DNA from: an uncultured Lachnospiraceae bacterium
Lineage (GTDB): Bacteria; Bacillota; Clostridia; Oscillospirales; CAG-272
NCBI GenBank assembly: GCA_964490165.1
Contig: CAZBAR010000003.1
Location: 42,463-106,462, forward strand
DNA length: 64,000 nucleotides
Direction: 5' to 3'
Below the pieces are notes generated by a model. It saw nothing but the letters and a program-made list of their open reading frames with translations, made no database searches and was not told the DNA's origin. Below are positions 7,829-21,443 of this stretch, in pieces (position 1 is the first letter of the stretch; each line of letters starts with the position of its first letter). Both the position numbers and the translations under genes were made by a program.

Positions 7829-8896
7829 TCAAGGCAGGCGAATATCGTCGCGTGTCATCTGAAGCTCAAGCCATGCAAAAAGCTGCTCGATCTTCGCTTC
7901 ATCGTCCTTTATCAGCTTTATTTCACTCACATGATGCCACCAAAATGAGTTCATATATCTGAACAATACAGGAAAAGCTTTACGCTCCTCATCAGAGTAG
8001 TTATAGAATTCTTCAATACACCTGAGATTACGGAGAAAAGCGTCGATGCGTCTTTTATCAAGCTCTTCATCATACAAAAACAACCATCTTCCGGAGCTGT
8101 CAAAAAGTCTTTCTTCCCATATCTGCCACAAAGCAGCACGAACAGAATAGTTAAGTACAGGTTCCATGCCGCACAGATTAAAGTCTATCAAGCCCTCAAA
8201 ACCATATTGTGCGTTGATCAAAACATTATTACTGCCGAGATCCCCCTGAAAACAAGATACAGGCAGCGATGCATAGATCTTACGCAACTCCTCTTGATTT
8301 TTATAGAACAGATCAAGCAGTTTTTCAGCACGTGAACAATATTCCGGAAGTTCCTTTTTTACAAAATCAAAGAATTGCTCAGCACATTCAGTAGCTTCGT
8401 CTGTTGTGTCCGGAGCGGAGTGAGGTTCAAGCAGACAATAAGCCGAGCCAAACGGCAGGAAATCAAAGTGTGCTGCGGATACCTTACCCAAGGAGCGCAG
8501 CATGTCATAAACGTAAACAGGTGTACCTGTTTCATCCTTTTTAAGTTCATTCTCCAAGCTCTCGGCAATATCAAATTTTGCAAATTCCTCGGCATGAACA
8601 CAAAAAGTTCTGCCGTTTTCTGTATATTGATAAACAACATCCCCGTTTTTATTAGGTATAATATCGGGACAGTAAATACCCAGCTTATTGTACTCAGCTA
8701 TCAGCCTTTGCCAACCGCGTATACGTTCTGCGTTTGTAAAAGCATTAGAAGCATGCTTTATAACAAGCTTTCTGTTTCCGTCATCCGTAATATATACTTT
8801 GCGAAAATCCTTATCGCCTCGGCATAGATCAAGTGTTTCAATATTTTCGGGAACAGTATCATAGTACAAAAGAAACAATTCTTTCTCAATATCCAT
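7829..8896 (-). CDS. phosphotransferase (APH / choline-kinase-like) family protein
   Basis: 355 aa with a kinase-like core: VIKH (Lys), a Brenner-type motif with Q in place of H (FQGDLGSNNVLI), and GLIDFNLCG. Confidence 0.6.
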   Translation of the reverse strand: MDIEKELFLLYYDTVPENIETLDLCRGDKDFRKVYITDDGNRKLVIKHASNAFTNAERIRGWQRLIAEYNKLGIYCPDIIPNKNGDVVYQYTENGRTFCVHAEEFAKFDIAESLENELKKDETGTPVYVYDMLRSLGKVSAAHFDFLPFGSAYCLLEPHSAPDTTDEATECAEQFFDFVKKELPEYCSRAEKLLDLFYKNQEELRKIYASLPVSCFQGDLGSNNVLINAQYGFEGLIDFNLCGMEPVLNYSVRAALWQIWEERLFDSSGRWLFLYDEELDKRRIDAFLRNLRCIEEFYNYSDEERKAFPVLFRYMNSFWWHHVSEIKLIKDDEAKIEQLFAWLELQMTRDDIRLP

Positions 8897-9018
8897 TTCA
8901 TCAACTCCTTACTTTTGAAAAACGGGGCTGCTGCAAATAATAAAAGAATCACAGCAGTCCTTTCTCTGCGTAAAATGCTGTTAAATTCAGTACGTCTGCA
9001 AATCAGACAAAAATCAAG

Positions 9019-9783
9019 CTATGGCTTTCTTGCAAGATAAAGAACTATTGTATTATTAAGAGTTATTTTGTTGCCAAAGCTTAGTATAGCATTTCTTATC
9101 CCGTCTAAAAACTTCGATTTGTATGGTTCTGATATTGTTAATTGGTGAGCGCAAATACTGATAAAGGTAACATATTCATCTGCGGTATATTCTACAACCT
9201 GATGATATTCACGCCGTTCAAAATCAACAAACCCATAGTTTACGGCATTATTGTAATTAAAATTTGTATTGTACGGTAGTTCGGGTTTGAAGAACTGTGA
9301 ATAAACCTCCTGAATTTTTTCATAGAGTTTTTCATTTGGAGTTTTATAGTCAGTATGCGTCATAAACATGGCGAGAGTACCATGGCTTTTCAAAATATCA
9401 TATACCTTAGGAAACGCGATTTCTTCCGGTATCCATTGAATTGTTGCTGCTGAATAAACTAAGTCAAAGGTATTTTTTTCAAAGGGATAAGTTTCAAAAT
9501 CTGCATTAACAATACTGAAATTTTTATATTTGCTAAATTTCTCCTGCATGTTCTTTGTGAAATTCTCACCGAGCTCAACGGCGAAATAAGAACAATCGGT
9601 TTTTAAGATCGGTTCTGTTGCCTGTCCGGTACCCGGACCGATCTCAAGTGCGCTTTTTGTTTCATCAAGCTTTGCATGGGAAATAACATCCGCAAAAAGC
9701 TCATTACAATACCTGAACCTAAACTCATCAAAATCCTTAGGCTGTACCTTGTCATTGAAAACTTTCCTGTAATCCATGTTCAT
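9019..9783 (-). CDS. class I SAM-dependent methyltransferase
   Basis: Motif I LEIGPGTGQAT and the post-I acidic residue in AVELG. Start moved to ATG 9783, behind GGAGGAGG. Confidence 0.8.
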   Translation of the reverse strand: MNMDYRKVFNDKVQPKDFDEFRFRYCNELFADVISHAKLDETKSALEIGPGTGQATEPILKTDCSYFAVELGENFTKNMQEKFSKYKNFSIVNADFETYPFEKNTFDLVYSAATIQWIPEEIAFPKVYDILKSHGTLAMFMTHTDYKTPNEKLYEKIQEVYSQFFKPELPYNTNFNYNNAVNYGFVDFERREYHQVVEYTADEYVTFISICAHQLTISEPYKSKFLDGIRNAILSFGNKITLNNTIVLYLARKP

Positions 9784-9829
9784 CGCCTCCTCCAAAAATA
9801 TAAAAATTTGCAATAATTACCTTATTTAT

Positions 9830-10486
9830 TCATGCTCCGCGCGTTGCCGTAAGCGTATATGTTACACCCCAGTTTTTCAGAACCGCGACTTCTGAAAATC
9901 CTGCTTTTTTCAGAATCTCTGCTTCGTGCGCGACCGTAAGAGGGGTATCGAAATGATAAAAGGATTCATCCGTGATACCTTGCTCTTGCTTTAGTTTTTC
10001 AAAGCTTTCAAAGCCTTCTGTTTCCATTTCATCCGACAATGCAAAGTAATCCGTTAAAACGAAATATCCGCCAGGCTTTAGGGCATTGAACAATTTTTCA
10101 TACAAATACAGCTTTTGTTCGGGAGTGAAGTGATGCAATGATTCAACCGACACCGCGGCGTCATATGCGTTATCTTTAAAAGGCACATCAAAATAAGAGC
10201 CGTTTATCAGGTGTAAGCTTTTATCCCCGAACTTTTCGGAAAGCGCCCTCAGCATATCCGCTGACAGATCTATCCCGGTAACATGCGCCGCAGGACTCAG
10301 GAGAAAATATTCTTCCAATTCAAGCCCTGTACCGCAGCCCAGATCAAGAACATTACTGTTTTCTTTTATCGGAAGCTGTTCTGCCGTAAATTTGTAAAAC
10401 TCAGATGCTCCCTCAATATTTGTCAGCATATGTTGGTCATAACCGTCGACTCTTTTTCTGAAAAAGTCATCCATTTTTTCAAGCAT
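9830..10486 (-). CDS. class I SAM-dependent methyltransferase
   Basis: Motif I VLDLGCGTGLE, GIDLS, LKPGGYFVLTD. Overlaps the upstream GNAT gene by 8 nt. Confidence 0.8.
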   Translation of the reverse strand: MLEKMDDFFRKRVDGYDQHMLTNIEGASEFYKFTAEQLPIKENSNVLDLGCGTGLELEEYFLLSPAAHVTGIDLSADMLRALSEKFGDKSLHLINGSYFDVPFKDNAYDAAVSVESLHHFTPEQKLYLYEKLFNALKPGGYFVLTDYFALSDEMETEGFESFEKLKQEQGITDESFYHFDTPLTVAHEAEILKKAGFSEVAVLKNWGVTYTLTATRGA

Positions 10487-11027
10487 TATTTATCACCTTA
10501 AATTCATGTTCCAGTATACTCATAAAAATCTTATCTACATACTTTCCATTGACAAAATACGCCTCAGGCAATCTCCCTACCTCTCTAAATCCTACTTTTT
10601 TATAGCACGATATGCCTGCGTAATTGTCGGCATGGACAGTGAGATTTATGCTATGCAGATTAATTGTATTAAATCCGTAGTTCAGGATCATCCGAATTGC
10701 CTCTGCACCGTTCCCTTTACCTCTTTGCTCTTCCTCACCAATAAAGATACCAATATAAGCACTACGGTTTATATGATCAATGTTATGAAGACTGATACTG
10801 CCTATTAATTCATCGTTGTCAAGAAGTACTATAGCGTAGCGCTGCATATTTTTAGGCGGCTCATAAAGCCACTTCAAATCGCTTTTCGATGAGACAACAC
10901 ATGAATATTGACCAAAATTAACCGCAACAGCTTCATCATTCATCCACTTTATGTAACTATCAATTTCATCTGCGTTGATCGGCGACAGGTATATGTGTTC
11001 ACCAATCAGCTTCTTATAATATTTCAT
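10479..11027 (-). CDS. GNAT family N-acetyltransferase (RimJ/RimL-like)
   Basis: 182 aa with the acetyl-CoA loop QRGKGNGAEA and a typical RimL-type opening (IYLSPIN..D...Y..W). Confidence 0.8.
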   Translation of the reverse strand: MKYYKKLIGEHIYLSPINADEIDSYIKWMNDEAVAVNFGQYSCVVSSKSDLKWLYEPPKNMQRYAIVLLDNDELIGSISLHNIDHINRSAYIGIFIGEEEQRGKGNGAEAIRMILNYGFNTINLHSINLTVHADNYAGISCYKKVGFREVGRLPEAYFVNGKYVDKIFMSILEHEFKVINNA

Positions 11028-11048: not shown

Positions 11049-12878
11049 CTATATAACATACTTATCCGCCTGCGTGTGCCACATTTCGGCGTACTTGCCG
11101 CCGGCGCGAAGCAGGCTTTCGTGGTCTCCCTCCTCACAAACTGCACCGTTTTCCATTACGATTATTCTGTCTGCAAGGCGAGTAGTGGAAAGTCTGTGGG
11201 AAATAAATACAACTGTGCTGTCTTTTGCCGCTTCGCGCATATAAATATTGAAATTGTATTCCGCTATAGGGTCAAGAGCACTTGACGGCTCGTCCAGTAT
11301 AATAAGTCCCGAATTTTTATAAAACGCACGTGCTATGGCGATCTTCTGCGCCTCGCCGCCGGACAGGTTTACTCCCTCATCGTCAAACTCCGCAGTAAGC
11401 TCAGTATCAAGACCGTGCGGCAAACGCTCCAGCCTTTCGCCGAAGCCGCTGTGTCTGAGCGCCGAACGTACCTTTTCGTCATCAGTGCTGCCATCTGTCA
11501 CGTCCATTACTACGTTTTCCTTAACCGTTCCGCCGTACAGGTTGAAATCCTGAAAAACTACACCTATATTATGGCGGTACGCCTTTACGTCATAGCTTTT
11601 AATACTCTGCCCGTCCATATATATTTCGCCCTCGGTGGGATCGTACAGGCGAAGCAGCAGCTTTGTAAGAGTGGTCTTGCCTGCGCCGTTATAGCCTACA
11701 ATAGCGATCTTCTCCTTGGGACGAAGTGACAGTGAAACATTGTTCAGAACGTACCCGTCTGTGTCGTTATACTTAAACGAAACGTTTTTCATCTCCAATG
11801 AGCACGGCTCATGGGAAACAGGCAGGTTTTCCTCTGATTTGATCTTGCCGTCACGTCTGAGAAACTCGCGCACCTTCTCCACATACATACAGTTTTCAGC
11901 AGAGTTTGAAAGTCTCAGAATAACGCTTGTAAAAGCCCAACGGACACGGTACACCGAGCGCATCATAACTACCATGGTAGCATAGCTTATGATCTCCAGC
12001 ACGCTTGCCTGATAGGCAAGAACAAGAACAAACAAAAGGTCAAACAGTGCAATATCAAAAAAGTCCTGCGCCCATGTGAGCAGATTAAGCCTTTTGTTGT
12101 GGCTGCCCACGACCTCGCAAACCTTTTCGGTGGCTTCATCAAAATCGTCAAACGCGCGCTCTCCCGCCTCGCTGCCCAAACGCAGCTCCTTTGCGTAGTC
12201 TGAAAGGTAAAACAGTCTCTTTATGTATCCTGTTCTGCGCCTGTATTTCTCGCGCAGAGCAAATTTACTGTAGTTATACTTGCTTCGGGTAAGCTGAAGC
12301 ACCATAGTTAGCACGGCGGACAACGCCACAACGGCGAAAGCTGCCGGACTTACCGCCGCAAAATATACACCCGTAGTTATAACCGTGCCCAGTGACATTG
12401 AAATTACGGAAATTATTTTCAAAATATAATCCACAAGTCCTACAGCCTTTTCAGTAGTCATTATGAAATCGTTATAATAGGTCGGATCGTCAAAATATTC
12501 AAGATCAACGTCATGCGCCTTTTCAAAAAGCATATTTTTGATCTTTGTTTCAGCTCTCAGCTTTGCTTTCGGCAAAAGCCACTGTCCTACTACCGAGCCG
12601 AGCACGCTTGACACCATAAGCATAATCACTACTGCAAGTATGGGATAAAAAGCCGAAGTGAACGGCTTGTTGTACTGTATACAGTCAAGCACCGTTTGGA
12701 TAAGCCATGTGTGCTCAATAAATATAAACACCTGAACCCTGAACTGCTCCAGTGCATACAGCGCTACGCCCACGGGGCTTGCGGAAAACACAAGCTTTAT
12801 TAAAAACCAGTTGTCGGCAATTATCTTTTTTGCCGAAAGCTTCGGAGCCTCTGCAAATTCCATGTTTTTCTTTTTCAT
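11049..12878 (-). CDS. ABC exporter half-transporter (TMD-NBD), second of a pair
   Basis: Walker A GYNGAGKTT, signature LSGGEAQK, Walker B IILDEPSSALD. The start overlaps the upstream partner by 4 nt (ATGA). Confidence 0.9.
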   Translation of the reverse strand: MKKKNMEFAEAPKLSAKKIIADNWFLIKLVFSASPVGVALYALEQFRVQVFIFIEHTWLIQTVLDCIQYNKPFTSAFYPILAVVIMLMVSSVLGSVVGQWLLPKAKLRAETKIKNMLFEKAHDVDLEYFDDPTYYNDFIMTTEKAVGLVDYILKIISVISMSLGTVITTGVYFAAVSPAAFAVVALSAVLTMVLQLTRSKYNYSKFALREKYRRRTGYIKRLFYLSDYAKELRLGSEAGERAFDDFDEATEKVCEVVGSHNKRLNLLTWAQDFFDIALFDLLFVLVLAYQASVLEIISYATMVVMMRSVYRVRWAFTSVILRLSNSAENCMYVEKVREFLRRDGKIKSEENLPVSHEPCSLEMKNVSFKYNDTDGYVLNNVSLSLRPKEKIAIVGYNGAGKTTLTKLLLRLYDPTEGEIYMDGQSIKSYDVKAYRHNIGVVFQDFNLYGGTVKENVVMDVTDGSTDDEKVRSALRHSGFGERLERLPHGLDTELTAEFDDEGVNLSGGEAQKIAIARAFYKNSGLIILDEPSSALDPIAEYNFNIYMREAAKDSTVVFISHRLSTTRLADRIIVMENGAVCEEGDHESLLRAGGKYAEMWHTQADKYVI

Positions 12879-14722
12879 ACAGCTTCCTCCTCTCCGCCTG
12901 CTGCAAGGTAACTCTTAGCCTGATGAATAAACATATCGGCATATGCACCGCCCTTTGACATAAGGGCACTGTGCGTACCGCTCTCAACAAGACAGCCGTT
13001 TTCAAACATCAATATTTTATCAGCAGACTTTACAGACGACAGTCTGTGAGAAATGAGGAAAACTGTTTTATTCTCCGTCGCCTCCATGATAGCATTGAAC
13101 AGATCGTACTCCGCTATAGGGTCAAGAGCACTGGAAGGCTCATCGAATACCATGCATCTTCCGTTTTGCACCAGTGCTCTTGCAACCGCCAGCTTTTGAT
13201 ACTGACCGCCTGAGAACACCGCTCCGCTGTCGTCAAACTCTCTTGTCATGGTAGTATTCATGGATTTTTCAAGCCCCTCTACCTTATCCCATAGTCCTAC
13301 CTTTTCAAGAGCTGTGCGCGCCGCCTCCTCGGTGTCCTCACACTCCGCGCCCATGGTAATATTATCAAGCACGCTCATAGCAAACACCTTGTAGTCCTGA
13401 AAAGCTGCGGAAAACAGCTTGCGGTATGATCTTACCTCATATTCTCTGATATCGATGCCGTTAAGAAGTATCACGCCCTCATCAGGGTCGTAAAGGCGGA
13501 GAAGAAGCTTTACTATAGTGCTCTTTCCCGCGCCGTTATGGCCTACCAGCGCGATCCTCTCCCCTCCGCGAACGGTGAATGACAGAGCATTAACAGCAGC
13601 CTCGCTGCTGCCGTCATACTTAAATGTAACGTTTCTGAACTCGATAGTGTCTATTGCCTCAGGCACGCTTAGTCCCTTGCCGTCCTCGGGGATCCTTTCT
13701 TTGTAATTCAAAAATTCGCGCACATTCTGAATGTAAATGCAATCGTTATGCAGTTCCATACTATATTCAAACAGACCTATTATCCTCCAGGACGCTGCCG
13801 TCATTACCGATGTAAAAATAGTCATTTCGGCAAGGTCAATAGTACCCGAAACAAGTGCCCGATAGCTGCAATACAGCAGTATGCCTTCAAAGATCATCAG
13901 GTAGTTAAACTGCACCTGCCCCCAATACACCGCGCCGCTGCCAAGTGCAAAGCGATCCCAGATACGCAGATTTTTTCCTACAGCATCAGAGTGCTTTTTC
14001 TGCATCATATCGTATACGCCGGTTATTCTCATTTCCTTTGCGTACTGACCGAGATGCAGTACTCTCAAAACGTAATCTATGATACGCGCATTTCTTGTGT
14101 TTTCTTTATACCGTTTTTGGTCGATACTGTTAAGCCACCTGCCGAAAACGAAATTGCCTATTATGGGAAAAACAAGAAACACAGCAATATACGGATCGGT
14201 TTTCATCATTACTGTCATATAAAAAACAACTAAGGCAAATGCACTCAATATCTGTAAAATTCCGTAAAACACATTCTGTATTCGCTCAGGCGTATTGTCC
14301 AGCGCTCTTGTGTACTTATTGTAAAATTCAGCATCCTCATAGCACGCAAGCTCTACATTGGCGGCTTTCTTAAAAATAAGCTTATTTATATGTTTGCTGA
14401 AACGCTCATCCACTGTTTCAATATCGTAGACATACTTTGTCTCACAGAATTTAACAACTAAAATTGCGGCAAACATAGTTGAAACAAGAATTACAATATT
14501 TATAAACGGGCTGCGGGATTCTATAAAGCTTACAAGGAATTTAACATAATATGTATTATTATACGCCATATAAACGGCCCATGCCAGCATTATAACGATC
14601 CACAAAACCGCATACTTTTTATAAAATTTCAAATACTCTTTTACGGCAAAAAGGCAATTGTCAAAGATCCCTTTTGCTGTTATTTCTTTTTCTTTCTTCT
14701 CTCTCTTTTTGAATAACTTCAT
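12875..14722 (-). CDS. ABC exporter half-transporter (TMD-NBD), first of a pair
   Basis: Walker A GHNGAGKST, FSGGQYQK, MVFDEPSSALD. Paralogous to 11049-12878 (both share SSALDPIAEY). Start set at ATG 14722 behind GAAGGAG; the TTG start in the track is 36 codons upstream. Confidence 0.9.
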   Translation of the reverse strand: MKLFKKREKKEKEITAKGIFDNCLFAVKEYLKFYKKYAVLWIVIMLAWAVYMAYNNTYYVKFLVSFIESRSPFINIVILVSTMFAAILVVKFCETKYVYDIETVDERFSKHINKLIFKKAANVELACYEDAEFYNKYTRALDNTPERIQNVFYGILQILSAFALVVFYMTVMMKTDPYIAVFLVFPIIGNFVFGRWLNSIDQKRYKENTRNARIIDYVLRVLHLGQYAKEMRITGVYDMMQKKHSDAVGKNLRIWDRFALGSGAVYWGQVQFNYLMIFEGILLYCSYRALVSGTIDLAEMTIFTSVMTAASWRIIGLFEYSMELHNDCIYIQNVREFLNYKERIPEDGKGLSVPEAIDTIEFRNVTFKYDGSSEAAVNALSFTVRGGERIALVGHNGAGKSTIVKLLLRLYDPDEGVILLNGIDIREYEVRSYRKLFSAAFQDYKVFAMSVLDNITMGAECEDTEEAARTALEKVGLWDKVEGLEKSMNTTMTREFDDSGAVFSGGQYQKLAVARALVQNGRCMVFDEPSSALDPIAEYDLFNAIMEATENKTVFLISHRLSSVKSADKILMFENGCLVESGTHSALMSKGGAYADMFIHQAKSYLAAGGEEEAV

Positions 14723-14846: not shown

Positions 14847-15048
14847 AACTTTCTTTTTTGAGCAAAAAAGAAAGTTAGAAAGAAAAATGCTTCAAAGGGA
14901 ACGGAAAGAATTCCTTTCCCTTTGAAATCCCATTCTTTCTTTCAGCTTCCGAAGGAAGCATAACGAAATTTACAGCAAACCTTTAGGGGGCAATAGCCCC
15001 AATATTGTTTGACAGAAGCTAACGTGTGCTTCCCGCAGGGAAGCACAC
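14847..15048. repeat. array of five short GC-rich hairpins in the gap between the two ABC pairs
   Basis: AACTTTCTTTTTT/AAAAAAGAAAGTT (13 bp), CAAAGGGA../..TCCCTTTG (8+4 bp), GCTTCC-gaa-GGAAGC, GGGGC-aata-GCCCC, GTGTGCTTCCC-gca-GGGAAGCACAC (11 bp). Confidence 0.7.
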
Positions 15049-15080: not shown

Positions 15081-16898
15081 TTACTCAAAAGCTGAATTTG
15101 TAGCTTCGTCCTCATACTGTCTGGTGTACAGTCCGTAGTAATAGCCGCCTTTGGCGATAAGCTCCTCGTGGGTTCCCTGCTCCACGATCTTACCGTCGCG
15201 CACGACCAGTATCAGGTCCGCATTTCTGACCGTTGACAGTCTGTGCGCTATAACAAGCGATGTTCTGCCCTTGATTATAGTATCTATAGCGGACTGTATC
15301 TTCTGCTCGGTTATAGTGTCAACAGACGCGGTTGCCTCATCAAGCACAAGTATTTTCGGGTCGGCAAGCACCGCTCTTGCAAAGGATATAAGCTGCTTTT
15401 CTCCGGTGGATAAAAGATCTCCGCCCTCTCCAACATCACTGTCAAGTCCGTTTTCAAGATGCTCCACCACGCCCTGTGCCGACACAAGGCTGAGTGCACG
15501 GTCAATATCGTCCTCAGTCGCACCCGGATTGCCGTACAGAAGATTTTCACGAACCGTGCCCGAAAACAGATGCGGCGTTTGAAGCACATAGCCGATAGCG
15601 CTGTGCAGCCAAAGCTGCGAGCGTTCTCTGGCGTCTCTGCCGTCGATAAGCACCTGACCCTCTGTAGGCTCAAAAAATCTGCACACAAGATTGACAAGGG
15701 TAGACTTACCCGCTCCGGTCTCGCCGACTATGGCAATATTCGTGCCGAACGGTATTTTCAGATTGAAGTGCTCCAGCACATACTCATCGCCGTCGGGATA
15801 CTTAAAGCTAACGTCGCGAAACTCTATATCACCGCGAATGGCCTCCCAGTTTTCACGCTTCGCAGTGAAGCTGTCGCCGTACTTCTCAATTACTTCGGGA
15901 GTGTCCTTTACGTCAGACTCTGTCTCCACAAGGCGAGAAAAACGCTCTATATTTACCTGCGTGGTAATAAGGTCGGATATGCAGTCGATTATCCATCTTA
16001 CCGGCTCCATCATTCCCTGCGCATAGGACATAAACATAGAAAACGTTCCCACCTCTTCGGCTGCAATATATCCTCCGCGCCACAAAACTATCGCCAGCGC
16101 AAGAGATGACGCCAGATTCATGGTAACAGCAAACATACTGCGTATGCGCGCGCCCTGCACTGTCTTTTTCAGCATAGCATCTGTATCGCTGACAAAATGA
16201 TCAGTCATTTTGTCCTCAATAACAAGCGTCTTTACCGTTTTTGCACCGGTAATGCCCTCGTTAAAGTTTCCCGTTATCTTAGAGTTTATCTCGCGCACCT
16301 CGCGGTTGACGCGAATAAGCTTTTTCTGAAACAGCGAAAATATCACGGTAATAAGCGGAATTATCGCCATTATCATTAACGCCAGCTTATAGTTGATAAC
16401 AAGCATTACGATTATTGAAAAAAGCAGATACGATATGTGCCAGACGCCGTCCATCATGGACCACGATACAAGCGAACCGATGCGGCTTGTATCGCTCATA
16501 ACTCTTGCGTGAATATAGCCGACGCTGTTCTGATTGTAGTACGAAAACGACAGCGTCTGCAAATGATTGAATGCCGCGTTTCTCAGGTCCTTGTTTATAC
16601 TGACCTCAACGCGCATAGCGAAGGCACATGAAATATAGTTTACAACGCCGGTGAGTATAACGGTCAGCGCGTAGATAACTATGAAAAACGGCAGTGTGTC
16701 AAGGGTGTTCTCACCCACAAAATGGTTGAGCGCATATCGCTGGTACAGAGGCGTTACCGTATCGAACGCGCTTCCAAGCAGACCGCAGATTATCATCAGC
16801 GCGATCAAACTTTTGTACTTCTTCATAAAAGGCAGTATTTTTCCGACTCCGAAAAACGGCAGTGCCTTTTTCTCGTTTATTTCTTTGTAATCTGTCAT
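15081..16898 (-). CDS. heterodimeric ABC exporter subunit (canonical Walker B, deviant signature)
   Basis: Walker A GETGAGKST, Walker B LVLDEATASVD, signature LSTGEKQL instead of LSGGQ. Lies 6 nt downstream of its partner. Confidence 0.9.
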   Translation of the reverse strand: MTDYKEINEKKALPFFGVGKILPFMKKYKSLIALMIICGLLGSAFDTVTPLYQRYALNHFVGENTLDTLPFFIVIYALTVILTGVVNYISCAFAMRVEVSINKDLRNAAFNHLQTLSFSYYNQNSVGYIHARVMSDTSRIGSLVSWSMMDGVWHISYLLFSIIVMLVINYKLALMIMAIIPLITVIFSLFQKKLIRVNREVREINSKITGNFNEGITGAKTVKTLVIEDKMTDHFVSDTDAMLKKTVQGARIRSMFAVTMNLASSLALAIVLWRGGYIAAEEVGTFSMFMSYAQGMMEPVRWIIDCISDLITTQVNIERFSRLVETESDVKDTPEVIEKYGDSFTAKRENWEAIRGDIEFRDVSFKYPDGDEYVLEHFNLKIPFGTNIAIVGETGAGKSTLVNLVCRFFEPTEGQVLIDGRDARERSQLWLHSAIGYVLQTPHLFSGTVRENLLYGNPGATEDDIDRALSLVSAQGVVEHLENGLDSDVGEGGDLLSTGEKQLISFARAVLADPKILVLDEATASVDTITEQKIQSAIDTIIKGRTSLVIAHRLSTVRNADLILVVRDGKIVEQGTHEELIAKGGYYYGLYTRQYEDEATNSAFE

Positions 16899-16904
16899 AC
16901 CGTA

Positions 16905-18767
16905 TCACTCCCCTTTCTTATCATCCTGCGATCCTGACTGGATCTCATATATTTTCTGATAGATCCCGCCGCCGCGCTTCAGCTCCTCATGTGTTCCGCG
17001 CTCCACTATCCTGCCGCGGTCAAGCACCAGTATCTGATCTGCCGCCGACAGCGTGGTTATGCGGTGCGAAATGAGTATTATGCTTGACGTGCCGAAACGC
17101 TCCTCCAGCGAGCGGCGTATCTTTTCATCTGTCTCGGTATCCACCGCTGACAGTGAGTCGTCAAATATCATAACAGGCGTTTTCTGCGTAAGTATTCTGG
17201 CAATAGCCGCCCTCTGCTTCTGTCCGCCTGAAAGAGTCACTCCTCTCTCGCCTACAAAGGTGTCGTAGCCCTGTGTAAAGCCCTCAACAGTTTCGTCAAG
17301 ACAAGCGGCGCGCGCCGCCTCGCGTATTTCACTCAGCGTTATACCGTCGTCTGTAATTCCTATATTCTCCGCAATTGTGCGCGAAAACAGATACGGCTCC
17401 TGCAGAACGATGCCGATATTTTTTCTCAGGTGCTCCGCCTTTATGTCGGCGATATCAACGCCGCCGACAGTGATCCTGCCGCTGTTATCAGGCAGATCGT
17501 AAAGCCTGTCCAAAAGCAGCATCATTGTAGATTTACCGCTGCCCGTGCCGCCGAGAATACCCAGCGTTGTACCGCCCTTCATAGTAAAGCTTATATCGTG
17601 AAGCATTTCGGGGCAGCCCTCGTACGCAAAATTAACGTGATCAAAAACAATATCCCCACTCATATCGGGGCAAACGGCATTGGGCTTGTCGCACTCAATT
17701 TCAGACTCCATAATGTATCTGATACGGTCGATCGAAACACCCGCCTTGCTCATTTCCGATATCATTCTGCCAAGCTGACGTATAGGCCACATAAGCAGCG
17801 CGTTATAAGAGATAAACGCTATGTATTCGCCGGGTTCCATGCTTCCGTTTATGCAGAAGACCGCGCCGAATACGACAACAAGAAGTATCTGTGTTCCTGA
17901 CAGAACGTCGGAAGTGCTCCAGAATCGGCTCATTACCTTTGCCAGTCTGACCCACAACCCCGTATAATACTCGTTATGCGCTTCAAAGCGCTCTTTTTCA
18001 TAGCGTTCCCGTCCGAAAGCGCGGACTACCCGCACGCCTGTCAGATTTTCCTGCGCCATTGCCGACAGCTTGCCCTCGTTTTCGTCGCACAGAGCAAAGC
18101 CGCGCCCGATATTCTTGTGAAACATCAGAGAGTACAGCACGATAATAGGAGTCGGCGCAAGGGATATAAGCGTAAGCGGCACGTTCATTGATGACATAAA
18201 CGCAATAGACATAACAAGCAGTATTACTATTCTGAATATGCTTGTAAGCTGTTCGGAAACGAAGTTTTTCAAAGTATCGATATCCGAAGTGCAGCGCTGG
18301 ATTATATCGCCTGTGCGGTTTTTCATGTGCCACGAAAAGGGCAGCCGCTCAATGCGTGAGAAAAGGCTGTCTCGCATATTTTTAACAAGCCTTTCCGATG
18401 CGATAGTGTTTGTAACTCGGAAGGAGTACTGCGCCGCCACCCGCACGATTTCTACGGCGAGAATGGCGAGAGCCATTATCCACAGATTGCGTCCCAGATA
18501 TTCAAATCCGCCGAGACTGTCCACAAAGCGCATTATGACAGGGGAAAAATCCGCTGCTTTACCGCCGATGGCGTTATCTACCGCCGCGCGTATTATCTGC
18601 GGAGTTATCATATCCGCAAATACCATAAGAGCCGCGGACAGTATGCTCAGAGCAAACATTGCAAGACATCCGTGGAGGAAATACCAAATAAGCGCCGCCT
18701 TCTTTTTTCCCTCAGAGCGCTTTGCTGTTATCTTCTCGTTCTTTTCATTTTTCTTCTTCATTTTCAT
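16905..18767 (-). CDS. heterodimeric ABC exporter subunit (degenerate catalytic site)
   Basis: Walker A GGTGSGKST, signature LSGGQKQR, Walker B MIFDDSLSAVD (Asp where the catalytic Glu is expected). Start set at ATG 18767 behind GAAAGGA. Confidence 0.9.
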   Translation of the reverse strand: MKMKKKNEKNEKITAKRSEGKKKAALIWYFLHGCLAMFALSILSAALMVFADMITPQIIRAAVDNAIGGKAADFSPVIMRFVDSLGGFEYLGRNLWIMALAILAVEIVRVAAQYSFRVTNTIASERLVKNMRDSLFSRIERLPFSWHMKNRTGDIIQRCTSDIDTLKNFVSEQLTSIFRIVILLVMSIAFMSSMNVPLTLISLAPTPIIVLYSLMFHKNIGRGFALCDENEGKLSAMAQENLTGVRVVRAFGRERYEKERFEAHNEYYTGLWVRLAKVMSRFWSTSDVLSGTQILLVVVFGAVFCINGSMEPGEYIAFISYNALLMWPIRQLGRMISEMSKAGVSIDRIRYIMESEIECDKPNAVCPDMSGDIVFDHVNFAYEGCPEMLHDISFTMKGGTTLGILGGTGSGKSTMMLLLDRLYDLPDNSGRITVGGVDIADIKAEHLRKNIGIVLQEPYLFSRTIAENIGITDDGITLSEIREAARAACLDETVEGFTQGYDTFVGERGVTLSGGQKQRAAIARILTQKTPVMIFDDSLSAVDTETDEKIRRSLEERFGTSSIILISHRITTLSAADQILVLDRGRIVERGTHEELKRGGGIYQKIYEIQSGSQDDKKGE

Positions 18768-18811
18768 CGATACCGTTCCTTTCATAACTAAAATTCCAGC
18801 CAAAACAGCGC

Positions 18812-18846
18812 AAAAAAATGCGGTGCAGGCTCGTACCCACACCGCA
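18812..18846 (-). terminator. intrinsic terminator inside the 5' leader of the ABC pair (candidate attenuator)
   Basis: On the minus strand: TGCGGTGTGG-tacgag-CCTGCACCGCA followed by TTTTTTT. It lies 23 nt after the stop of the 33-aa upstream ORF and 44 nt before the ABC start codon. Confidence 0.65.
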
Positions 18847-18869
18847 AAGCGTATAACTGCGACTATTAT

Positions 18870-18971
18870 TCAGCACTCTCTGAGGAGAGGACAAAAAAGG
18901 AGCAGCCCGGTGAATACTCGACCTATGATATTTACAGCGTAATTATAATCCTTAATAACGATGGTTGTCAT
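18870..18971 (-). CDS. 33-aa upstream ORF (candidate leader peptide or small membrane peptide)
   Basis: Below the size cut-off of the ORF track. AAGGAG sits 8 nt before ATG 18971. Hand translation, codon by codon: MTTIVIKDYNYAVNIIGRVFTGLLLFCPLLREC, then TGA. Confidence 0.45.
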   Translation of the reverse strand: MTTIVIKDYNYAVNIIGRVFTGLLLFCPLLREC

Positions 18972-19007
18972 ATTGGGTTCTCCTTTCTTAAAAATTAAAC
19001 TGTTAAG

Positions 19008-19036
19008 ATTTTACTACAGGAATTTGCATATGTCAA
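19008..19036 (-). promoter_or_regulatory. sigma-A-type promoter driving the upstream ORF and ABC pair
   Basis: On the minus strand: TTGACA, 17 nt, TAAAAT, about 30 nt upstream of the SD of the small ORF. Confidence 0.55.
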
Positions 19037-19160
19037 GGCATTTTAATAATTTTTGCACAATTTTTTCATAAAATGCAAAAATGCATTTACAAAGGCATTT
19101 TATAGTAATATACTGTTTATACAAATCAACGATTTTACAAAAACGAAAGGTTCGGTATAT

Positions 19161-19829
19161 ATGTTCACTCCCAAAACACTTGAATTTATCGCTGAGAACC
19201 ACTGGAGAGGCGACAAAGAGTGGTTTTCCTCTCATAAAAACGAATACACGGAATTTGTGCAAAAGCCTCTGATCGAGCTGGCGGAAGCTATTGCACCTAC
19301 GATAGAGAGTATAGACAGCGCTCTTATAACCGATCCGAAATCAGCTGTCGCGCGCATATACCGCGATATGCGCTTCGCTAAAGGCGGCTCGCCTTACCGC
19401 GAAATGCTTTGGATATCATTCAGGCATGACAGAAAGGCTTTTCCCTGCCGTCCCGAATTTTACTTTGTTTTCTCACCGCGCGAGCTTTTCTACGGTTGCG
19501 GATATTACTCGGCAAAAGCCGATTCAATGGAAGCGCTCCGCCGTCTTATTTTGGAAAACGACAAAAAATTCACAGCGGCAAAAGCGGTGCTTGAAAAGCA
19601 CGGTGATTTCAGCCTTGAGGGCGATATGTATAAAAAAAGCCGCTACGGCGAATATTCCGAAAACCTCAGAAGCTGGCTGGACAGAAAGACCGTATGCTGC
19701 TCATACCGTCCCGATATAAGCGAGCTTTTCGACAAAGCTCTCCCTGAAAAAGTTCGCACTGTTTTTCTTGAAATGAAGCCTGTATATGAGTTCCTGATGC
19801 ACGCAGAGAAAGCTGTTGATAACAATTGA
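19161..19829 (+). CDS. DUF2461 (TIGR02453-like) family protein
   Basis: MFTPKTLEFIAENHWRGDKEWFSSHKNEY... matches the characteristic opening of the family. Start moved to ATG 19161. Confidence 0.65.
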   Translation: MFTPKTLEFIAENHWRGDKEWFSSHKNEYTEFVQKPLIELAEAIAPTIESIDSALITDPKSAVARIYRDMRFAKGGSPYREMLWISFRHDRKAFPCRPEFYFVFSPRELFYGCGYYSAKADSMEALRRLILENDKKFTAAKAVLEKHGDFSLEGDMYKKSRYGEYSENLRSWLDRKTVCCSYRPDISELFDKALPEKVRTVFLEMKPVYEFLMHAEKAVDNN

Positions 19830-19852
19830 GTTTGCCACGGAGTTAAAACGCT

Positions 19853-20755
19853 ATGAAAATAGACCGCCTTATGGGCATTATTACAATATTGCAACAAAAG
19901 AAGACCGTTACCGCGCCGTATCTTGCCGAAAAATTTGAGGTCTCCCGCCGGACTATCGGCAGAGATATTGAGGACCTGTGCAAAGCAGGCATTCCTGTCG
20001 TTACATCTCAGGGAACGGGCGGCGGTATATCCATAATGGAGGGATTTTCTCTCGACACCACCGTGTTTACAAAATCCGAGCTGACGGCTATATTTGCAGG
20101 GCTGAAATCTCTTGACAGTGTTTCCGGTTCAGCGTCAGCCGAGCGTATAGCAGAAAAAATCGGCGGAGAGTCCGCGGTGCGGCTTGCCGACCATATGGTT
20201 ATAGACCTTGCGTCTTTTTACAAAGACGACCTGTCAGAGAAGATCGAATGCATAAAGGCCGCTATAGAAAGGTCGCGGTGCATAGAGTTTCATTACTGCT
20301 ATGACAAGGGAGAAGCGGACAAGCTGATCGAGCCGTATCTGATCGTCTTTAAGTGGTCAGACTGGTATGTGTTCGGCTTCTGCAAGGAACGACAGGATTT
20401 TCGGATGTATAAACTGCGTCGGATGTGGAATTTAACGGTCACTGACGAAACGTTTACTGTACGGGAAGTTCCCGAAGAGAAAAAGCGTTTCGGCACTCAT
20501 ATAACAGATGACTATGTGATAACTGCAATCTATGACGCTTCCGTAAAATACAGATTGGTTGAAGAGTACGGACACACCTGTTTTACAGAACAGGAAGACG
20601 GAAAACTGTATACTGAGTGGGGATTTACTACTCAAAAAGGCGCTGTGGAGTGGTTTCTCGGCTTCGGCGATAAGGTAAAAGTGCTCTCCCCTCCCGAAAT
20701 GGTGGAACAAATGAAAAATGCTCTTGATTCTATAAAAAAACTATATGAAACATGA
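19853..20755 (+). CDS. YafY-type transcriptional regulator (HTH + WYL domain)
   Basis: N-terminal HTH (MKIDRLMGIITILQQKKTVTAPYLAEKFEVSRRTIGRDIEDL) and a WYL region (IEPYLIVFKWSDWYVFGFCKERQDFRMYKLRRM). Confidence 0.85.
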   Translation: MKIDRLMGIITILQQKKTVTAPYLAEKFEVSRRTIGRDIEDLCKAGIPVVTSQGTGGGISIMEGFSLDTTVFTKSELTAIFAGLKSLDSVSGSASAERIAEKIGGESAVRLADHMVIDLASFYKDDLSEKIECIKAAIERSRCIEFHYCYDKGEADKLIEPYLIVFKWSDWYVFGFCKERQDFRMYKLRRMWNLTVTDETFTVREVPEEKKRFGTHITDDYVITAIYDASVKYRLVEEYGHTCFTEQEDGKLYTEWGFTTQKGAVEWFLGFGDKVKVLSPPEMVEQMKNALDSIKKLYET

Positions 20756-20810
20756 CATACAGCTGTCGTGTTTCGTATGATATAGTTTAGAAAAAATAGG
20801 AGATGTTTAT

Positions 20811-21443
20811 ATGCCCTTTGATTTCAAAAAAGAATATAAAGAATTCTATATGCCGCCGAAAAAACCAAGTATTGTGACGATACCGCCTATGAATTACATT
20901 GCGGTTCGCGGCAAGGGCGATCCCAACGAAGAAAACGGTGAATATAAGAATTCGATCGGTCTTCTTTACGGCATCGCCTTTACAATTAAAATGAGTTATA
21001 AGGGTGACCGTAAAATAGACGGATACTTTGAATATGTAGTCCCTCCCCTTGAAGGACTTTGGCATCAGGACGGAGTCAGCGGTATCGACTATACACGTAA
21101 GGACAGCTTTAATTTTATATCACTTATCCGCTTGCCCGACTTCGTGACAAAAGATGACTTCGATTGGGCTGTGTCGGAAGCCGCACACAAAAAGAAAACC
21201 GATTTTTCGTCGGTAGAATTTTTCACATACGATGAGGGCGAATGTGTACAGTGTATGCACATAGGCTCATATGATGACGAGCCGTCAACGATCACCGCTA
21301 TGCATGAATACGCGGCACAGAACGGATATGTGCCTGACATTACCGATACCCGGCAGCATCACGAGATCTATCTTTCCGACCCGAGAAGATGCGATGTCAG
21401 CAGGCTTAAAACGGTAGTCAGACATCCAATAAAGAAAGAATAA
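20811..21443 (+). CDS. GyrI-like small-molecule-binding domain protein
   Basis: 210 aa. FDFKKEYKEFYMPPKKPSIVTIPPMNYIAVRGKGDPN is the typical opening of this GyrI-like subfamily. Confidence 0.7.
   Translation: MPFDFKKEYKEFYMPPKKPSIVTIPPMNYIAVRGKGDPNEENGEYKNSIGLLYGIAFTIKMSYKGDRKIDGYFEYVVPPLEGLWHQDGVSGIDYTRKDSFNFISLIRLPDFVTKDDFDWAVSEAAHKKKTDFSSVEFFTYDEGECVQCMHIGSYDDEPSTITAMHEYAAQNGYVPDITDTRQHHEIYLSDPRRCDVSRLKTVVRHPIKKE

What the first reader, a model, noticed from the sequence alone, without database searches (positions are those of the whole stretch)
18812..19036. 33-aa upstream ORF plus intrinsic terminator ahead of a heterodimeric ABC exporter: candidate ribosome-sensing attenuator
Read on the minus strand, the order of elements is as follows. 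A good promoter (TTGACA-17-TAAAAT, 19036-19008) comes first. Then AAGGAG sits 8 nt before ATG 18971. The ORF encodes MTTIVIKDYNYAVNIIGRVFTGLLLFCPLLREC and stops at 18870. A GC-rich hairpin with a U7 tract follows 23 nt later (18846-18812). After that come GAAAGGA and the ATG (18767) of the first ABC gene. The ORF is too short for the supplied track. This layout mirrors the leader-peptide transcription attenuation known for Bacillus subtilis bmrB-bmrCD, where a heterodimeric multidrug ABC exporter is induced by ribosome-targeting antibiotics. It also mirrors many ribosome-stalling resistance leaders. Alternatively, the peptide has a hydrophobic C-terminal half and could be a genuine small membrane subunit. 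I could not identify a convincing antiterminator pairing by eye.
Basis: partly seen in the sequence, partly recalled or inferred. Interest (0 to 1): 0.62.

Follow-up and report, generated by a model that had tools for sequence, protein, structure and literature searches.

The report
Leader-ORF transcription attenuator before ABC exporter
A short translated reading frame followed by a transcription stop signal sits ahead of a two-gene drug-pump-like ABC exporter. Related uncultured gut and rumen Clostridia carry the same layout, so it is most likely a ribosome-sensing on/off switch of a known type, not a new kind of system.

Summary

**What is there.** The downstream genes are a heterodimeric ABCB-type exporter, with one degenerate and one consensus ATP site.

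**Comparative evidence.**
- I fetched 168 loci that encode relatives of the first ABC gene.
- About 20 of them, in at least five sequence-divergent subgroups, carry the same leader layout: a strong ribosome-binding site, a 20-39-codon ORF, a 20-32 nt spacer, an intrinsic terminator, then the ABC genes.
- An 88 %-identical relative (L161) has a clearly homologous leader.
- The reading frame stays open, but the peptide sequence is not conserved.

**New structural feature.** The 3' part of the leader ORF pairs with the ORF's own Shine-Dalgarno region. This pairing beats shuffled controls in 15 of 16 leaders.

**Weak point.** An antiterminator that overlaps this pairing is evident in the largest subgroup. 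In the window it is weak and not statistically supported.

**Best reading (confidence about 0.6).** This is a uORF-dependent transcription attenuator that works like B. subtilis vmlR or bmrB. It is not a sequence relative of bmrB, and the inducing signal is unknown.

**Rejected alternative.** The small-membrane-subunit idea is disfavoured.

**Verdict.** New member of a known kind, of moderate interest.

The parts
19008..19036 (-). Sigma-70-type promoter: TTGACA (19036-19031), 17 nt, TAAAAT (19013-19008). The inferred transcription start is near 19001.
   Evidence: The -35 box and the -10 region are conserved in L161 (alignment A1).
18975..18989 (-). Region 1, the 5' strand of helix P1: AAGAAAGGAG (18989-18980, containing the Shine-Dalgarno AAGGAG 18985-18980), plus A and CCC (18977-18975).
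   Evidence: Minimum-free-energy folds. The duplex with the ORF body is -17.0 kcal/mol against -10.5 +/- 2.3 for dinucleotide shuffles, p=0.017.
18870..18971 (-). Leader ORF (uORF): ATG 18971, 33 codons, TGA 18872-18870.
   Evidence: The start and stop codons align with those of the 39-codon ORF in L161, and the only indel inside the ORF is 18 nt, which keeps the frame. Frame 0 is open for 33 codons, while frames +1 and +2 close after 0 and 5 codons.
18902..18917 (-). Candidate antiterminator 5' strand (region 2a): GUAUUCAC (18917-18910), a CGG bulge, and GCUGC (18906-18902). It is predicted to pair with GCGGU-GUGGGUAC (18845-18833), which is the whole 5' arm of the terminator plus two loop bases.
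   Evidence: RNAduplex gives -15.4 kcal/mol. L161 has GUACCC-U-CUGC at the homologous place, and RNAalifold on the pair with the 3' arm removed predicts GUAYY:GGUAC. The evidence is weak: the pairing is no better than shuffles (p=0.38), and forcing the antiterminator costs 16-19 kcal/mol.
18893..18908 (-). Region 2b, the 3' strand of P1 (anti-Shine-Dalgarno): GGG (18908-18906), U, and CUCCUUUUUU (18902-18893), inside codons 22-26 of the uORF. It overlaps region 2a.
   Evidence: The block CGGG..GCTCCTTTTT is conserved in L161. Equivalent anti-SD elements occur in all other subgroups, in all three reading frames.
18873..18892 (-). Local hairpin over the last seven codons (CUCUC/GAGAG). Its 3' part, AGAGUG (18879-18874), can instead pair with CGCUUU (18851-18846), which abuts the terminator (helix P3).
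   Evidence: P3 is kept in L161 as GAGUGC:GCACUU, with one compatible one-sided change.
18812..18846 (-). Intrinsic terminator: 5' arm 18846-18835, loop ACGA 18834-18831, 3' arm 18830-18819, U7 18818-18812.
   Evidence: The 5' arm and loop are identical in L161, while the 3' arm has changed.
16905..18783 (-). ABC1: Shine-Dalgarno GAAAGGA 18783-18777, ATG 18767, 620 aa. It has a transmembrane domain plus a nucleotide-binding domain with a degenerate Walker B motif (FDDS).
15081..16898 (-). ABC2: 605 aa, consensus Walker B (LDEA). Partner of ABC1.
14888..14929 (-). Terminator that closes the ABC1-ABC2 transcription unit.
   Evidence: -21 kcal/mol, T-rich tail.

Best explanation
The region is the 5' leader of the ABC1-ABC2 operon and acts as a uORF-dependent (ribosome-sensing) transcription attenuator.

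**Default state (off).** Transcription starts near 19001. The Shine-Dalgarno region (region 1) pairs with an anti-SD stretch in codons 22-26 of the leader ORF (region 2b), forming helix P1. The strong terminator (regions 3:4) then forms and most transcripts end at the U7 tract, 44 nt before ABC1. A ribosome that translates the whole ORF covers region 2 and also leaves the terminator free to form.

**Induced state (on).** A ribosome held at or near the start of the ORF keeps region 1 occupied, so P1 cannot close. The segment just 5' of and overlapping the anti-SD (region 2a, GUAUUCAC..GCUGC) is then free to pair with the newly made 5' arm of the terminator. RNA polymerase reads through into the ABC genes.

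**What is shown**
- The sequence elements are present.
- The architecture and the open frame are conserved in relatives.
- The SD:anti-SD helix is real and conserved.

**What is inferred**
- That the ORF is translated.
- That read-through is conditional.
- The identity of the antiterminator in the window.
- The signal. By analogy this would be drugs or stresses that arrest ribosomes early in translation, but nothing here identifies it.
For: 1. All elements are present, and no other strong promoter lies between the terminator and ABC1.
2. Of 159 orthologous loci with enough upstream sequence, 60 have a leader terminator. About 20 loci (L017, L019, L053, L060, L062, L065, L066, L068, L069, L077, L078, L079, L113, L115, L132-134, L144, L147, L161) have the same order of parts: a consensus SD, a start codon, a 20-39-codon ORF, a 20-32 nt gap (24 by the same measure in the window) and a terminator. 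ABC1 follows, 6-190 nt after the terminator stem (mostly 36-80; 51 in the window).
3. L161, L079 and L115 were found without reference to any ORF. L161 came through ABC1 homology and the other two through the RNA model. All three keep the ORF open.
4. Frame 0 is open for 20-39 codons in all 16 leaders tested, while the other frames mostly close within 0-11 codons. Indels inside the ORFs are multiples of 3.
5. The SD:anti-SD duplex is stronger than dinucleotide shuffles in 15 of 16 leaders (p<=0.03). The partner sequence differs between subgroups: AGGAGC:GCUCCU, GGAGGCCGC:GCGGCCUU, GGAGGUGUCAUCAU:AUGAUAGGCGCCUUC and AGAAAGGG:CCCUUUCU.
6. In the 10-sequence Faecousia-type alignment, removing the terminator 3' arm makes RNAalifold predict a consensus antiterminator. 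It pairs the anti-SD strand with the terminator 5' arm and loop. 87 % of cells are paired, against 30-62 % for slid controls.
7. A covariance model built only from that subgroup hits the window leader at 24.4 bits, E about 0.002. All 18 hits with E<0.01 in 1.1 Mb lie directly upstream of an ABC1 orthologue.
8. The logic matches experimentally dissected systems: vmlR (PMC9226507) and bmrB-bmrCD (PMC4191407).
Against: - No expression, 3'-end or ribosome data exist for this organism.
- The antiterminator pairing is not better than shuffled sequence in any of the 16 leaders (p 0.05-0.66; window 0.38).
- With a ribosome footprint masked at every codon, the equilibrium fold keeps the terminator in 13 of 16 leaders, including the window. 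Forcing the window antiterminator costs 16-19 kcal/mol. Any switch must therefore be kinetic.
- Covariation within the largest subgroup is not significant, because the pairs hardly vary.
- The peptide sequence is not conserved between subgroups, and within the largest subgroup the codon-position pattern is weak (0.38/0.54/0.58). No drug-specific arrest peptide can be claimed.
- Orthologues at 79-81 % identity (L081, L167, L168) lack the leader.
- The window's P1 loop is 72 nt, so a ribosome stalled in mid-ORF need not open P1.
Confidence: 0.6

Rival explanations
1. An RNA-only leader. The terminator and the P1 helix tune or regulate expression without any role for translation of the ORF. Examples would be a constitutive partial terminator, a 5' stem that stabilises the RNA, or a site for a protein, sRNA or ligand. 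The 'SD' is then simply one strand of a helix.
For: - The best-supported conserved feature is an RNA helix.
- Between the window and L161 the RNA blocks are far better conserved than the 5' two-thirds of the ORF.
- The CCUU element falls in all three frames across subgroups.
- Other orthologues use a leader with a terminator and no ORF (group B).
- PatAB has a 67-nt terminator leader without a uORF (PMC4319486).
Against: - A consensus SD at 7-9 nt from an ATG or GTG start, an open frame of conserved length and only in-frame indels recur in every subgroup, including members found without looking for ORFs.
- The sequence enclosed by P1 is variable in both length and sequence, unlike a ligand-binding core.
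- No Rfam family matches.
Confidence: 0.2
2. A stand-alone small-protein gene with its own terminator. It would encode a small membrane subunit or partner of the exporter, or a type I toxin-like hydrophobic peptide whose SD is sequestered. The ABC genes would be expressed by leak-through.
For: - The window peptide has a hydrophobic C-terminal half, and L161 has a 22-residue uncharged stretch.
- SD sequestration followed by a terminator immediately after a roughly 30-codon ORF resembles type I toxin mRNAs. This comparison rests on my own knowledge and was not tested.
Against: - The longest stretch without charged or strongly polar residues is 12 aa in the window and 4-15 aa in 15 of the other 16 family peptides (22 aa in L161). 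Most family peptides are 20-23 aa and carry charges.
- Peptides cannot be aligned between subgroups.
- A full HMMER scan of 1.84 billion representatives found only the identical 33-aa sequence and one repeat-protein artefact.
- An index search with the L161 ORF found only itself.
- The element always lies in the same orientation directly ahead of the same ABC orthologue.
- The weak antisense promoter-like site in the window is not conserved in L161, by reading.
Confidence: 0.07
3. A chance juxtaposition of a short ORF and a terminator, with no function beyond the promoter.
For: Within the window alone, about 0.6 such ORF-terminator pairs are expected by chance.
Against: - A homologous leader in L161 has aligned start and stop codons and a conserved terminator.
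- The same architecture recurs in at least four further subgroups.
- A terminator in a 5' leader with no upstream gene to terminate is unlikely to be neutral.
Confidence: 0.03

Closest known systems
B. subtilis vmlR leader (uORF inside an anti-antiterminator hairpin, antiterminator, intrinsic terminator; PMC9226507)
   Same: - The order of parts matches: promoter, uORF with its own SD, a 5' helix that must be opened by a ribosome at the uORF, an intrinsic terminator, then the resistance-type gene.
- A ribosome arrested at or near initiation would prevent the 5' helix and allow an antiterminator.
- A T-run matching the TTNTTT NusG pause motif lies in the leader (18898-18893, by reading).
   Different: - The vmlR uORF is 3 codons; this one is 33.
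- In vmlR the SD is single-stranded ahead of SL-1. Here the SD itself is one strand of the helix and pairs with the ORF's own 3' part.
- The regulated gene is an ABC-F ribosome-protection factor, not a membrane exporter.
- There is no sequence relationship.
- Nothing here has been tested experimentally.
B. subtilis bmrB-bmrCD ribosome-mediated attenuator (PMC4191407)
   Same: A leader ORF and an intrinsic terminator lie ahead of a heterodimeric ABCB-type exporter with one degenerate ATP site. BmrCD chains (PDB 7m33, YheI/YheH) are among the solved relatives of ABC1 and ABC2.
   Different: - bmrB is 53 codons and the terminator, antiterminator and anti-antiterminator lie inside its coding region (nt 60-162). 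Here the terminator begins 23 nt after the stop codon.
- No leader homology was shown.
- ABC1 and ABC2 are no closer to BmrCD than to TmrAB or TM287/288, so orthology is not established.
Classical 1:2 / 2:3 / 3:4 leader-peptide attenuators (E. coli trpL type) and ermC-type translational attenuators
   Same: Three mutually exclusive pairings, in which a stalled ribosome on segment 1 frees segment 2 to pair with segment 3.
   Different: - Segment 1 here is the ribosome-binding site itself rather than codons within the ORF.
- There is no run of regulatory codons.
- The output is transcription termination, unlike ermC.
S. pneumoniae patAB leader (PMC4319486)
   Same: A Rho-independent terminator in the leader of a heterodimeric ABC exporter limits expression.
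   Different: The leader is 67 nt and no uORF is described. The signal is unknown.

Membership tests
Ribosome-mediated (uORF / leader-peptide) transcription attenuators | A short ORF with a functional-looking ribosome-binding site in the 5' leader | tested here: met
   AAGGAG, then 8 nt, then ATG, then 33 codons. The frame is kept open in relatives. Translation itself has not been shown.
Ribosome-mediated (uORF / leader-peptide) transcription attenuators | An intrinsic terminator between the uORF and the regulated gene, with the gene dependent on read-through | tested here: met
   A 12-bp hairpin of about -20 kcal/mol followed by U7, 44 nt before ABC1. No promoter-like site lies between 18812 and 18767 on the minus strand in the scan.
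Ribosome-mediated (uORF / leader-peptide) transcription attenuators | A structure that a ribosome on the uORF would disrupt (anti-antiterminator or segment 1:2) | tested here: met
   The SD:anti-SD helix P1 scores -17.0 against -10.5 +/- 2.3 kcal/mol for shuffles, p=0.017. It is significant in 15 of 16 family leaders.
Ribosome-mediated (uORF / leader-peptide) transcription attenuators | An antiterminator mutually exclusive with both the terminator and the anti-antiterminator | tested here: inconclusive
   A consensus antiterminator is found in the Faecousia-type subgroup. The window candidate scores -15.4 kcal/mol and is partly conserved in L161. It is no better than shuffles and is 16-19 kcal/mol less stable than the terminator state.
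Ribosome-mediated (uORF / leader-peptide) transcription attenuators | Read-through depends on uORF translation and on a condition that stalls ribosomes | not testable with these tools
   This needs Term-seq, reporter fusions or toeprinting.
bmrB-bmrCD leader of Bacillus subtilis | Terminator and alternative structures embedded in the coding region of a roughly 53-codon leader ORF | tested here: not met
   The ORF is 33 codons and the terminator stem starts 23 nt after the stop codon. The bmrB anatomy is taken from PMC4191407.
bmrB-bmrCD leader of Bacillus subtilis | A downstream heterodimeric ABC exporter with one degenerate nucleotide-binding site | tested here: met
   ABC1 Walker B reads FDDS and ABC2 reads LDEA. 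Both have Pfam ABC_membrane plus ABC_tran domains. PDB relatives include 7m33 chains C and D, 5mkk and 3qf4.
bmrB-bmrCD leader of Bacillus subtilis | Sequence homology of the leader peptide or leader RNA to bmrB | not tested
Any curated RNA family (Rfam 15) | A match to a covariance model | tested here: not met
   No hit at E<=10 in window 17500-20500. No hit at E<=1 in seven related loci.
Faecousia-type uORF leader (model R1, defined here) | A match to the covariance model, located directly upstream of the ABC1 orthologue | tested here: met
   Window 18813-18995(-) scores 24.4 bits, E about 0.002 with default filters. With filters off the score is 16.9 bits, E about 0.03. Every hit below E 0.01 lies in the leader position.
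Faecousia-type uORF leader (model R1, defined here) | A uORF of 20-23 codons with the motif M-x3-V-N-[FC]...[RG]-S-[FL]-A-P | tested here: not met
   The window ORF is 33 codons and lacks the motif. The GCUCCU element is read in a different frame.
Small membrane protein or type I toxin | A hydrophobic segment long enough to span a membrane, and a conserved peptide family | tested here: not met
   The longest uncharged stretch is 12 aa. There are no relatives among 1.84 billion representatives apart from the identical sequence.

The most novel reading that the evidence does not exclude
The window leader is one branch of a widespread, undescribed family of leader-ORF attenuators in uncultured gut and rumen Clostridia. 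In this family the ORF's own ribosome-binding site is one strand of the sensor helix. The family would make heterodimeric ABC exporters inducible by drugs or stresses that trap ribosomes at or near initiation. Subfamily-specific nascent peptides (for example M-x3-VNF...RSFAP) would give drug specificity. This would define a new set of inducible efflux determinants in the gut resistome.
Probability: 0.3. Interest if true: 0.55.

Novelty: new member of a known kind. Interest (0 to 1): 0.4.

Why it matters
If the reading is right, a large group of uncharacterised heterodimeric ABC exporters in uncultured Oscillospiraceae and related Clostridia of the human gut and the rumen is switched on by translation stress.

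- This would flag them as candidate inducible efflux (resistance) determinants that annotation currently misses, because neither the 20-39-codon ORFs nor the leader RNA belong to any curated family.
- The self-sequestering ribosome-binding site gives a simple, searchable signature for finding more such attenuators.
- It does not open a new mechanistic class. The logic is that of vmlR, bmrB and trpL.

Tried and rejected
- **Rfam scans.** Scans of the window region and of seven related loci gave no match.
- **Look-up of the 33-aa peptide.** The exact sequence is not on record in the contig index. An index search with the L161 ORF product found only itself. A full HMMER scan with the window peptide found only the identical sequence plus a summed-repeat artefact in a 2282-aa protein.
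- **Closer relatives.**
  - P0001 (100 %) is not retrievable.
  - The P0003 contigs (87 %) all stop 33 nt upstream of ABC1, so their leader is unknown.
  - L081, L167 and L168 (79-81 %) lack the leader.
- **Other antiterminator candidates in the window.**
  - UUACGCUGUAAA:UUUGCGGUGUGG has 12 bp with 5 G-U pairs and is not conserved in L161.
  - A pyrimidine-rich UCCUCUCC.. pairing with the 5' arm is irregular.
  - ACCGGGCUGC plus AGAGUG with a 22-nt internal loop has only its P3 part conserved in L161.
- **Shuffle test of antiterminator strength.** Not significant in any leader.
- **Equilibrium ribosome-masking.** The terminator persists.
- **Covariation counts within the Faecousia-type alignment.** Not significant, because the pairs hardly vary.
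- **Peptide-level selection.** The codon-position signal is weak.
- **NCBIfam naming of the ABC proteins and neighbours.** Nothing reaches the curated cut-offs, so no substrate can be assigned.
- **Identity of the source genome.** No fetched locus is 90 % or more identical to the window.
Full report
**1.

On the minus strand I read the following:
- TTGACA (19036-19031), 17 nt, TAAAAT (19013-19008).
- AAGGAG (18985-18980), 8 nt, ATG 18971.
- A 33-codon ORF, MTTIVIKDYNYAVNIIGRVFTGLLLFCPLLREC, ending with TGA at 18872-18870.
- A 23-nt spacer.
- A 12-bp hairpin at 18846-18819 (7 G-C pairs, loop ACGA, about -20 kcal/mol), followed by U7 at 18818-18812.
- GAAAGGA (18783-18777) and ATG 18767.

Within the window alone this pairing is not statistically remarkable. 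There are 34 strong terminator-like hairpins and 42 short ORFs preceded by a Shine-Dalgarno sequence on the two strands. About 0.6 adjacent pairs are expected by chance and one is seen. Position and conservation carry the argument.

**2. Context**

- The ORF from 18767 to 16905 (620 aa) and the next from 16898 to 15081 (605 aa) each have an ABC_membrane and an ABC_tran domain.
- ABC1 has a degenerate Walker B motif (FDDS) and ABC2 a consensus one (LDEA). This is the hallmark of heterodimeric exporters with one inactive site.
- Among bacterial half-transporters, their solved relatives are TmrAB (5mkk), BmrCD/YheIH (7m33) and TM287/288 (3qf4).
- No NCBIfam model reaches its cut-off, so no substrate can be named.
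- A strong terminator at 14929-14888 closes this two-gene unit.
- A second ABC pair (14722-11049) follows with its own leader.
- Upstream, a DUF2461 gene diverges on the other strand. The leader terminator therefore has no upstream gene to terminate.

**3. Relatives**

Scans of one genome per species and of metagenomes returned 160 loci encoding ABC1 relatives at 58-81 % identity. All are from Clostridia: Oscillospiraceae, Faecousia, Lachnospiraceae and unclassified metagenome-assembled genomes from gut and rumen.

A script found a terminator within 260 nt upstream of ABC1 in 60 of 159 loci. About 20 loci share the window's order of parts: a consensus SD (AGAAAGGAG or GAAGGAGG), ATG or GTG, 20-26 codons, a gap of 20-32 nt (24 by the same measure in the window), a G+C-rich hairpin with a T-run, then ABC1, which follows 6-190 nt after the hairpin stem (mostly 36-80; 51 in the window).

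They fall into subgroups whose peptides cannot be aligned with each other:
- L017 and L019: MYNKSFALGNGMISAALSACGMEERG.
- A Faecousia-type group of 12: M-x3-V-N-[FC]-x5-[RG]-S-[FL]-A-P-x4.
- L132-134, and L144 with L147: MNK...SQGMIGAFGxxF.

The protein index gave one much closer relative, L161, with ABC1 88 % identical. Its leader is plainly homologous to the window's:
- The promoter, the CGGG..GCTCCTTTTT block, GAGTGCTGA, GTCGCA and the terminator 5' arm and loop are conserved.
- The start and stop codons align.
- The ORF is 39 codons (MLNKYFDNKSIGVGNIISVPSAVSVGVGWLLFALSFSEC).
- The only indel inside the ORF is 18 nt.
- The 5' two-thirds of the ORF has diverged at both nucleotide and amino-acid level.

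Orthologues at 79-81 % identity (L081, L167, L168) have no such leader.

**4. Is the ORF a real ORF?**

- In all 16 leaders tested, frame 0 is open for 20-39 codons. Frames +1 and +2 mostly close within 0-11 codons.
- Indels within the ORFs are multiples of three.
- One member uses GTG in place of ATG.
- Three members found without reference to ORFs (L161, L079, L115) all keep the frame.
- The peptide itself is poorly constrained. Subgroups cannot be aligned with each other, and in the Faecousia-type group the codon-position diversity is 0.38/0.54/0.58.
- The conserved ..SFAP.. motif coincides with a conserved RNA element.

What is conserved is that something is translated over a set distance, not what is made.

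**5. RNA structure**

*Helix P1.* The minimum-free-energy fold of the window leader pairs AAGAAAGGAG (18989-18980) with CUCCUUUUUU (18902-18893), which lies in codons 24-26 of the ORF.
- The same self-sequestration of the uORF's ribosome-binding site appears in every subgroup, with different partner sequences: AGGAGC:GCUCCU, GGAGGCCGC:GCGGCCUU, GGAGGUGUCAUCAU:AUGAUAGGCGCCUUC and AGAAAGGG:CCCUUUCU in L161.
- The CCUU core falls in all three reading frames, so this is an RNA-level constraint.
- Against dinucleotide shuffles of the ORF body the duplex is significant in 15 of 16 leaders (window p=0.017, L161 p=0).

*Antiterminator in the Faecousia-type group.* In the 10-sequence alignment, RNAalifold predicts P1 and the terminator.
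- When the terminator's 3' arm is removed, it predicts a consensus antiterminator. The anti-SD strand (GAAGCUU.GC.UCC) pairs with the terminator's 5' arm and loop (GGG.GC.AGGCUUC).
- 87 % of cells are paired, against 30-62 % for slid controls. Covariation is not significant because the columns hardly vary.
- This gives a classical arrangement in which segment 1 is the ribosome-binding site: 1:2 (SD:anti-SD), 2:3 (antiterminator) and 3:4 (terminator).

*Antiterminator in the window.* The analogous candidate is GUAUUCAC-CGG-GCUGC (18917-18902) pairing with GCGGU-GUGGGUAC (18845-18833), at -15.4 kcal/mol.
- It overlaps P1 and is topologically exclusive with it.
- L161 has GUACCC-U-CUGC at the homologous site. 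RNAalifold on the pair without the 3' arm recovers GUAYY:GGUAC.

*Caveats, which are serious.*
- Antiterminator pairing is no better than shuffles in any leader (p 0.05-0.66).
- Forcing it costs 16-19 kcal/mol in the window and 10-13 in L161.
- With a ribosome footprint masked at each codon, the equilibrium fold keeps the terminator in 13 of 16 leaders.
- If the switch exists, it is kinetic.

**6. Family membership at the RNA level**

A covariance model built only from the Faecousia-type leaders was searched against the window and all 168 loci, 1.1 Mb in total. It gave 18 hits below E=0.01. Each lies directly upstream of an ABC1 orthologue on the same strand. One of them is window 18813-18995(-) at 24.4 bits, E about 0.002. 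With filters off the window scores 16.9 bits, E about 0.03. L017, L019 and L161 are not detected. The window leader is thus a divergent relative, or a convergent analogue, of that family.

**7. Mechanism**

The most likely mechanism is uORF-dependent transcription attenuation.
- With no ribosome on the leader, P1 closes, the terminator forms and transcription stops.
- With a ribosome that runs to the stop codon, region 2 is covered and the terminator again forms.
- With a ribosome held at or near the start, P1 cannot close. Region 2a is free when the terminator's 5' arm emerges, and the polymerase reads through.

This is the logic shown experimentally for vmlR. There the uORF sits in an anti-antiterminator hairpin, and initiation-arresting drugs induce expression (PMC9226507). 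In outline it is also the logic shown for bmrB-bmrCD (PMC4191407). Shown here: the elements, their conservation and P1. Inferred: translation, conditional read-through, the antiterminator in the window and the signal.

**8. Comparison with known systems**

- It works like vmlR and bmrB but is not a member of the bmrB leader type. bmrB is 53 codons with the terminator inside the ORF.
- It matches no Rfam family.
- PatAB has a terminator leader without a uORF.
- Literature searches found no description of this leader.

**9. Rivals**

- An RNA-only leader remains possible (0.2), given how much better the RNA blocks are conserved than the peptide.
- A stand-alone small membrane protein or toxin is unlikely (0.07). 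The longest uncharged stretch is 12 aa, most family peptides are 20-23 aa and charged, and a scan of 1.84 billion representatives shows no peptide family.
- Chance is unlikely (0.03), given L161 and the other subgroups.

**10. Verdict**

This is a new member of a known kind, with one modest twist: the uORF's own ribosome-binding site is the sensor strand. It recurs at family scale in uncultured Clostridia. Interest is 0.4.

Noticed in passing
L013, L014, L018, L022, L031, L032, L034, L037, L039, L047, L048 and L063, about 40-200 nt upstream of ABC1 (for example L047 around 3800-3945): At least 12 orthologous ABC operons carry a different conserved leader. It has a TTGACA/TATAAT promoter, (A/G)CAUCGGAGGG(Y)YGA, a short variable hairpin, and a long conserved terminator (GCYGGAUAAG...CUUGUCCRGC plus U6-7). 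There is no conserved start codon or ORF and no Rfam match. It may be an unclassified riboregulator. L021, L030 and L057 look like variants.
   Followed up: partly
window 14888-14929 (-) and 11049-14722 (-): A strong terminator follows ABC2. A second ABC exporter pair (615 and 609 aa) then follows behind a roughly 360-nt intergenic region that contains several hairpins. The four ABC genes therefore form two separate units.
   Followed up: partly
window 7829-11027 (-): Directly downstream of the second ABC pair lie four genes: a GNAT acetyltransferase (weak similarity to AAC(6') and spermidine acetyltransferases), two SAM methyltransferases (one with weak Erm/KsgA-like similarity) and an APH-family phosphotransferase. 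None reaches a curated cut-off. The neighbourhood looks like small-molecule modification or resistance.
   Followed up: partly
L162-L166, position 1 (33 nt upstream of ABC1): Five independent Logan contigs carrying an 87 %-identical ABC1 all end at exactly the same base, 33 nt upstream of the start codon. Their leader could therefore not be read. The shared break point may reflect a hairpin or repeat just upstream.
   Followed up: no
window 18942-18971 (-): A second promoter-like site (ATGACA, 18 nt, TATAAT; 11 of 12 matches) overlaps the first codons of the leader ORF. A transcript from it would lack the SD and start codon but keep region 2 and the terminator. It is probably a chance match in AT-rich sequence.
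   Followed up: no
window 18893-18898 (-): The anti-SD strand ends in TTTTTT, which fits the TTNTTT non-template motif for NusG-dependent pausing described in B. subtilis (PMC9226507). L161 has TTTTT and TTTCTTTTT at the same place. A pause there could give a ribosome time to load.
   Followed up: no
window 19161-21443 (+): Three genes diverge from the leader promoter: a DUF2461 protein, a WYL-domain HTH regulator (HTH_11, WYL and WCX domains) and a GyrI-like small-molecule-binding protein. No link to the ABC operon was tested.
   Followed up: no
window about 39930-44138 (+): A further pair of ABC exporter genes, about 31 % identical to ABC1, lies on the plus strand. Its leader was not examined.
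   Followed up: no
P0122 and P0123: The 33-aa leader peptide exists as a called protein in the 1.84-billion representative library (identical sequence). The only other hit is a 2282-aa repeat protein. It scores through at least 10 copies of a weak 15-residue match (TTVSRDHSYAVDVIG), which is an artefact of summing repeats.
   Followed up: yes
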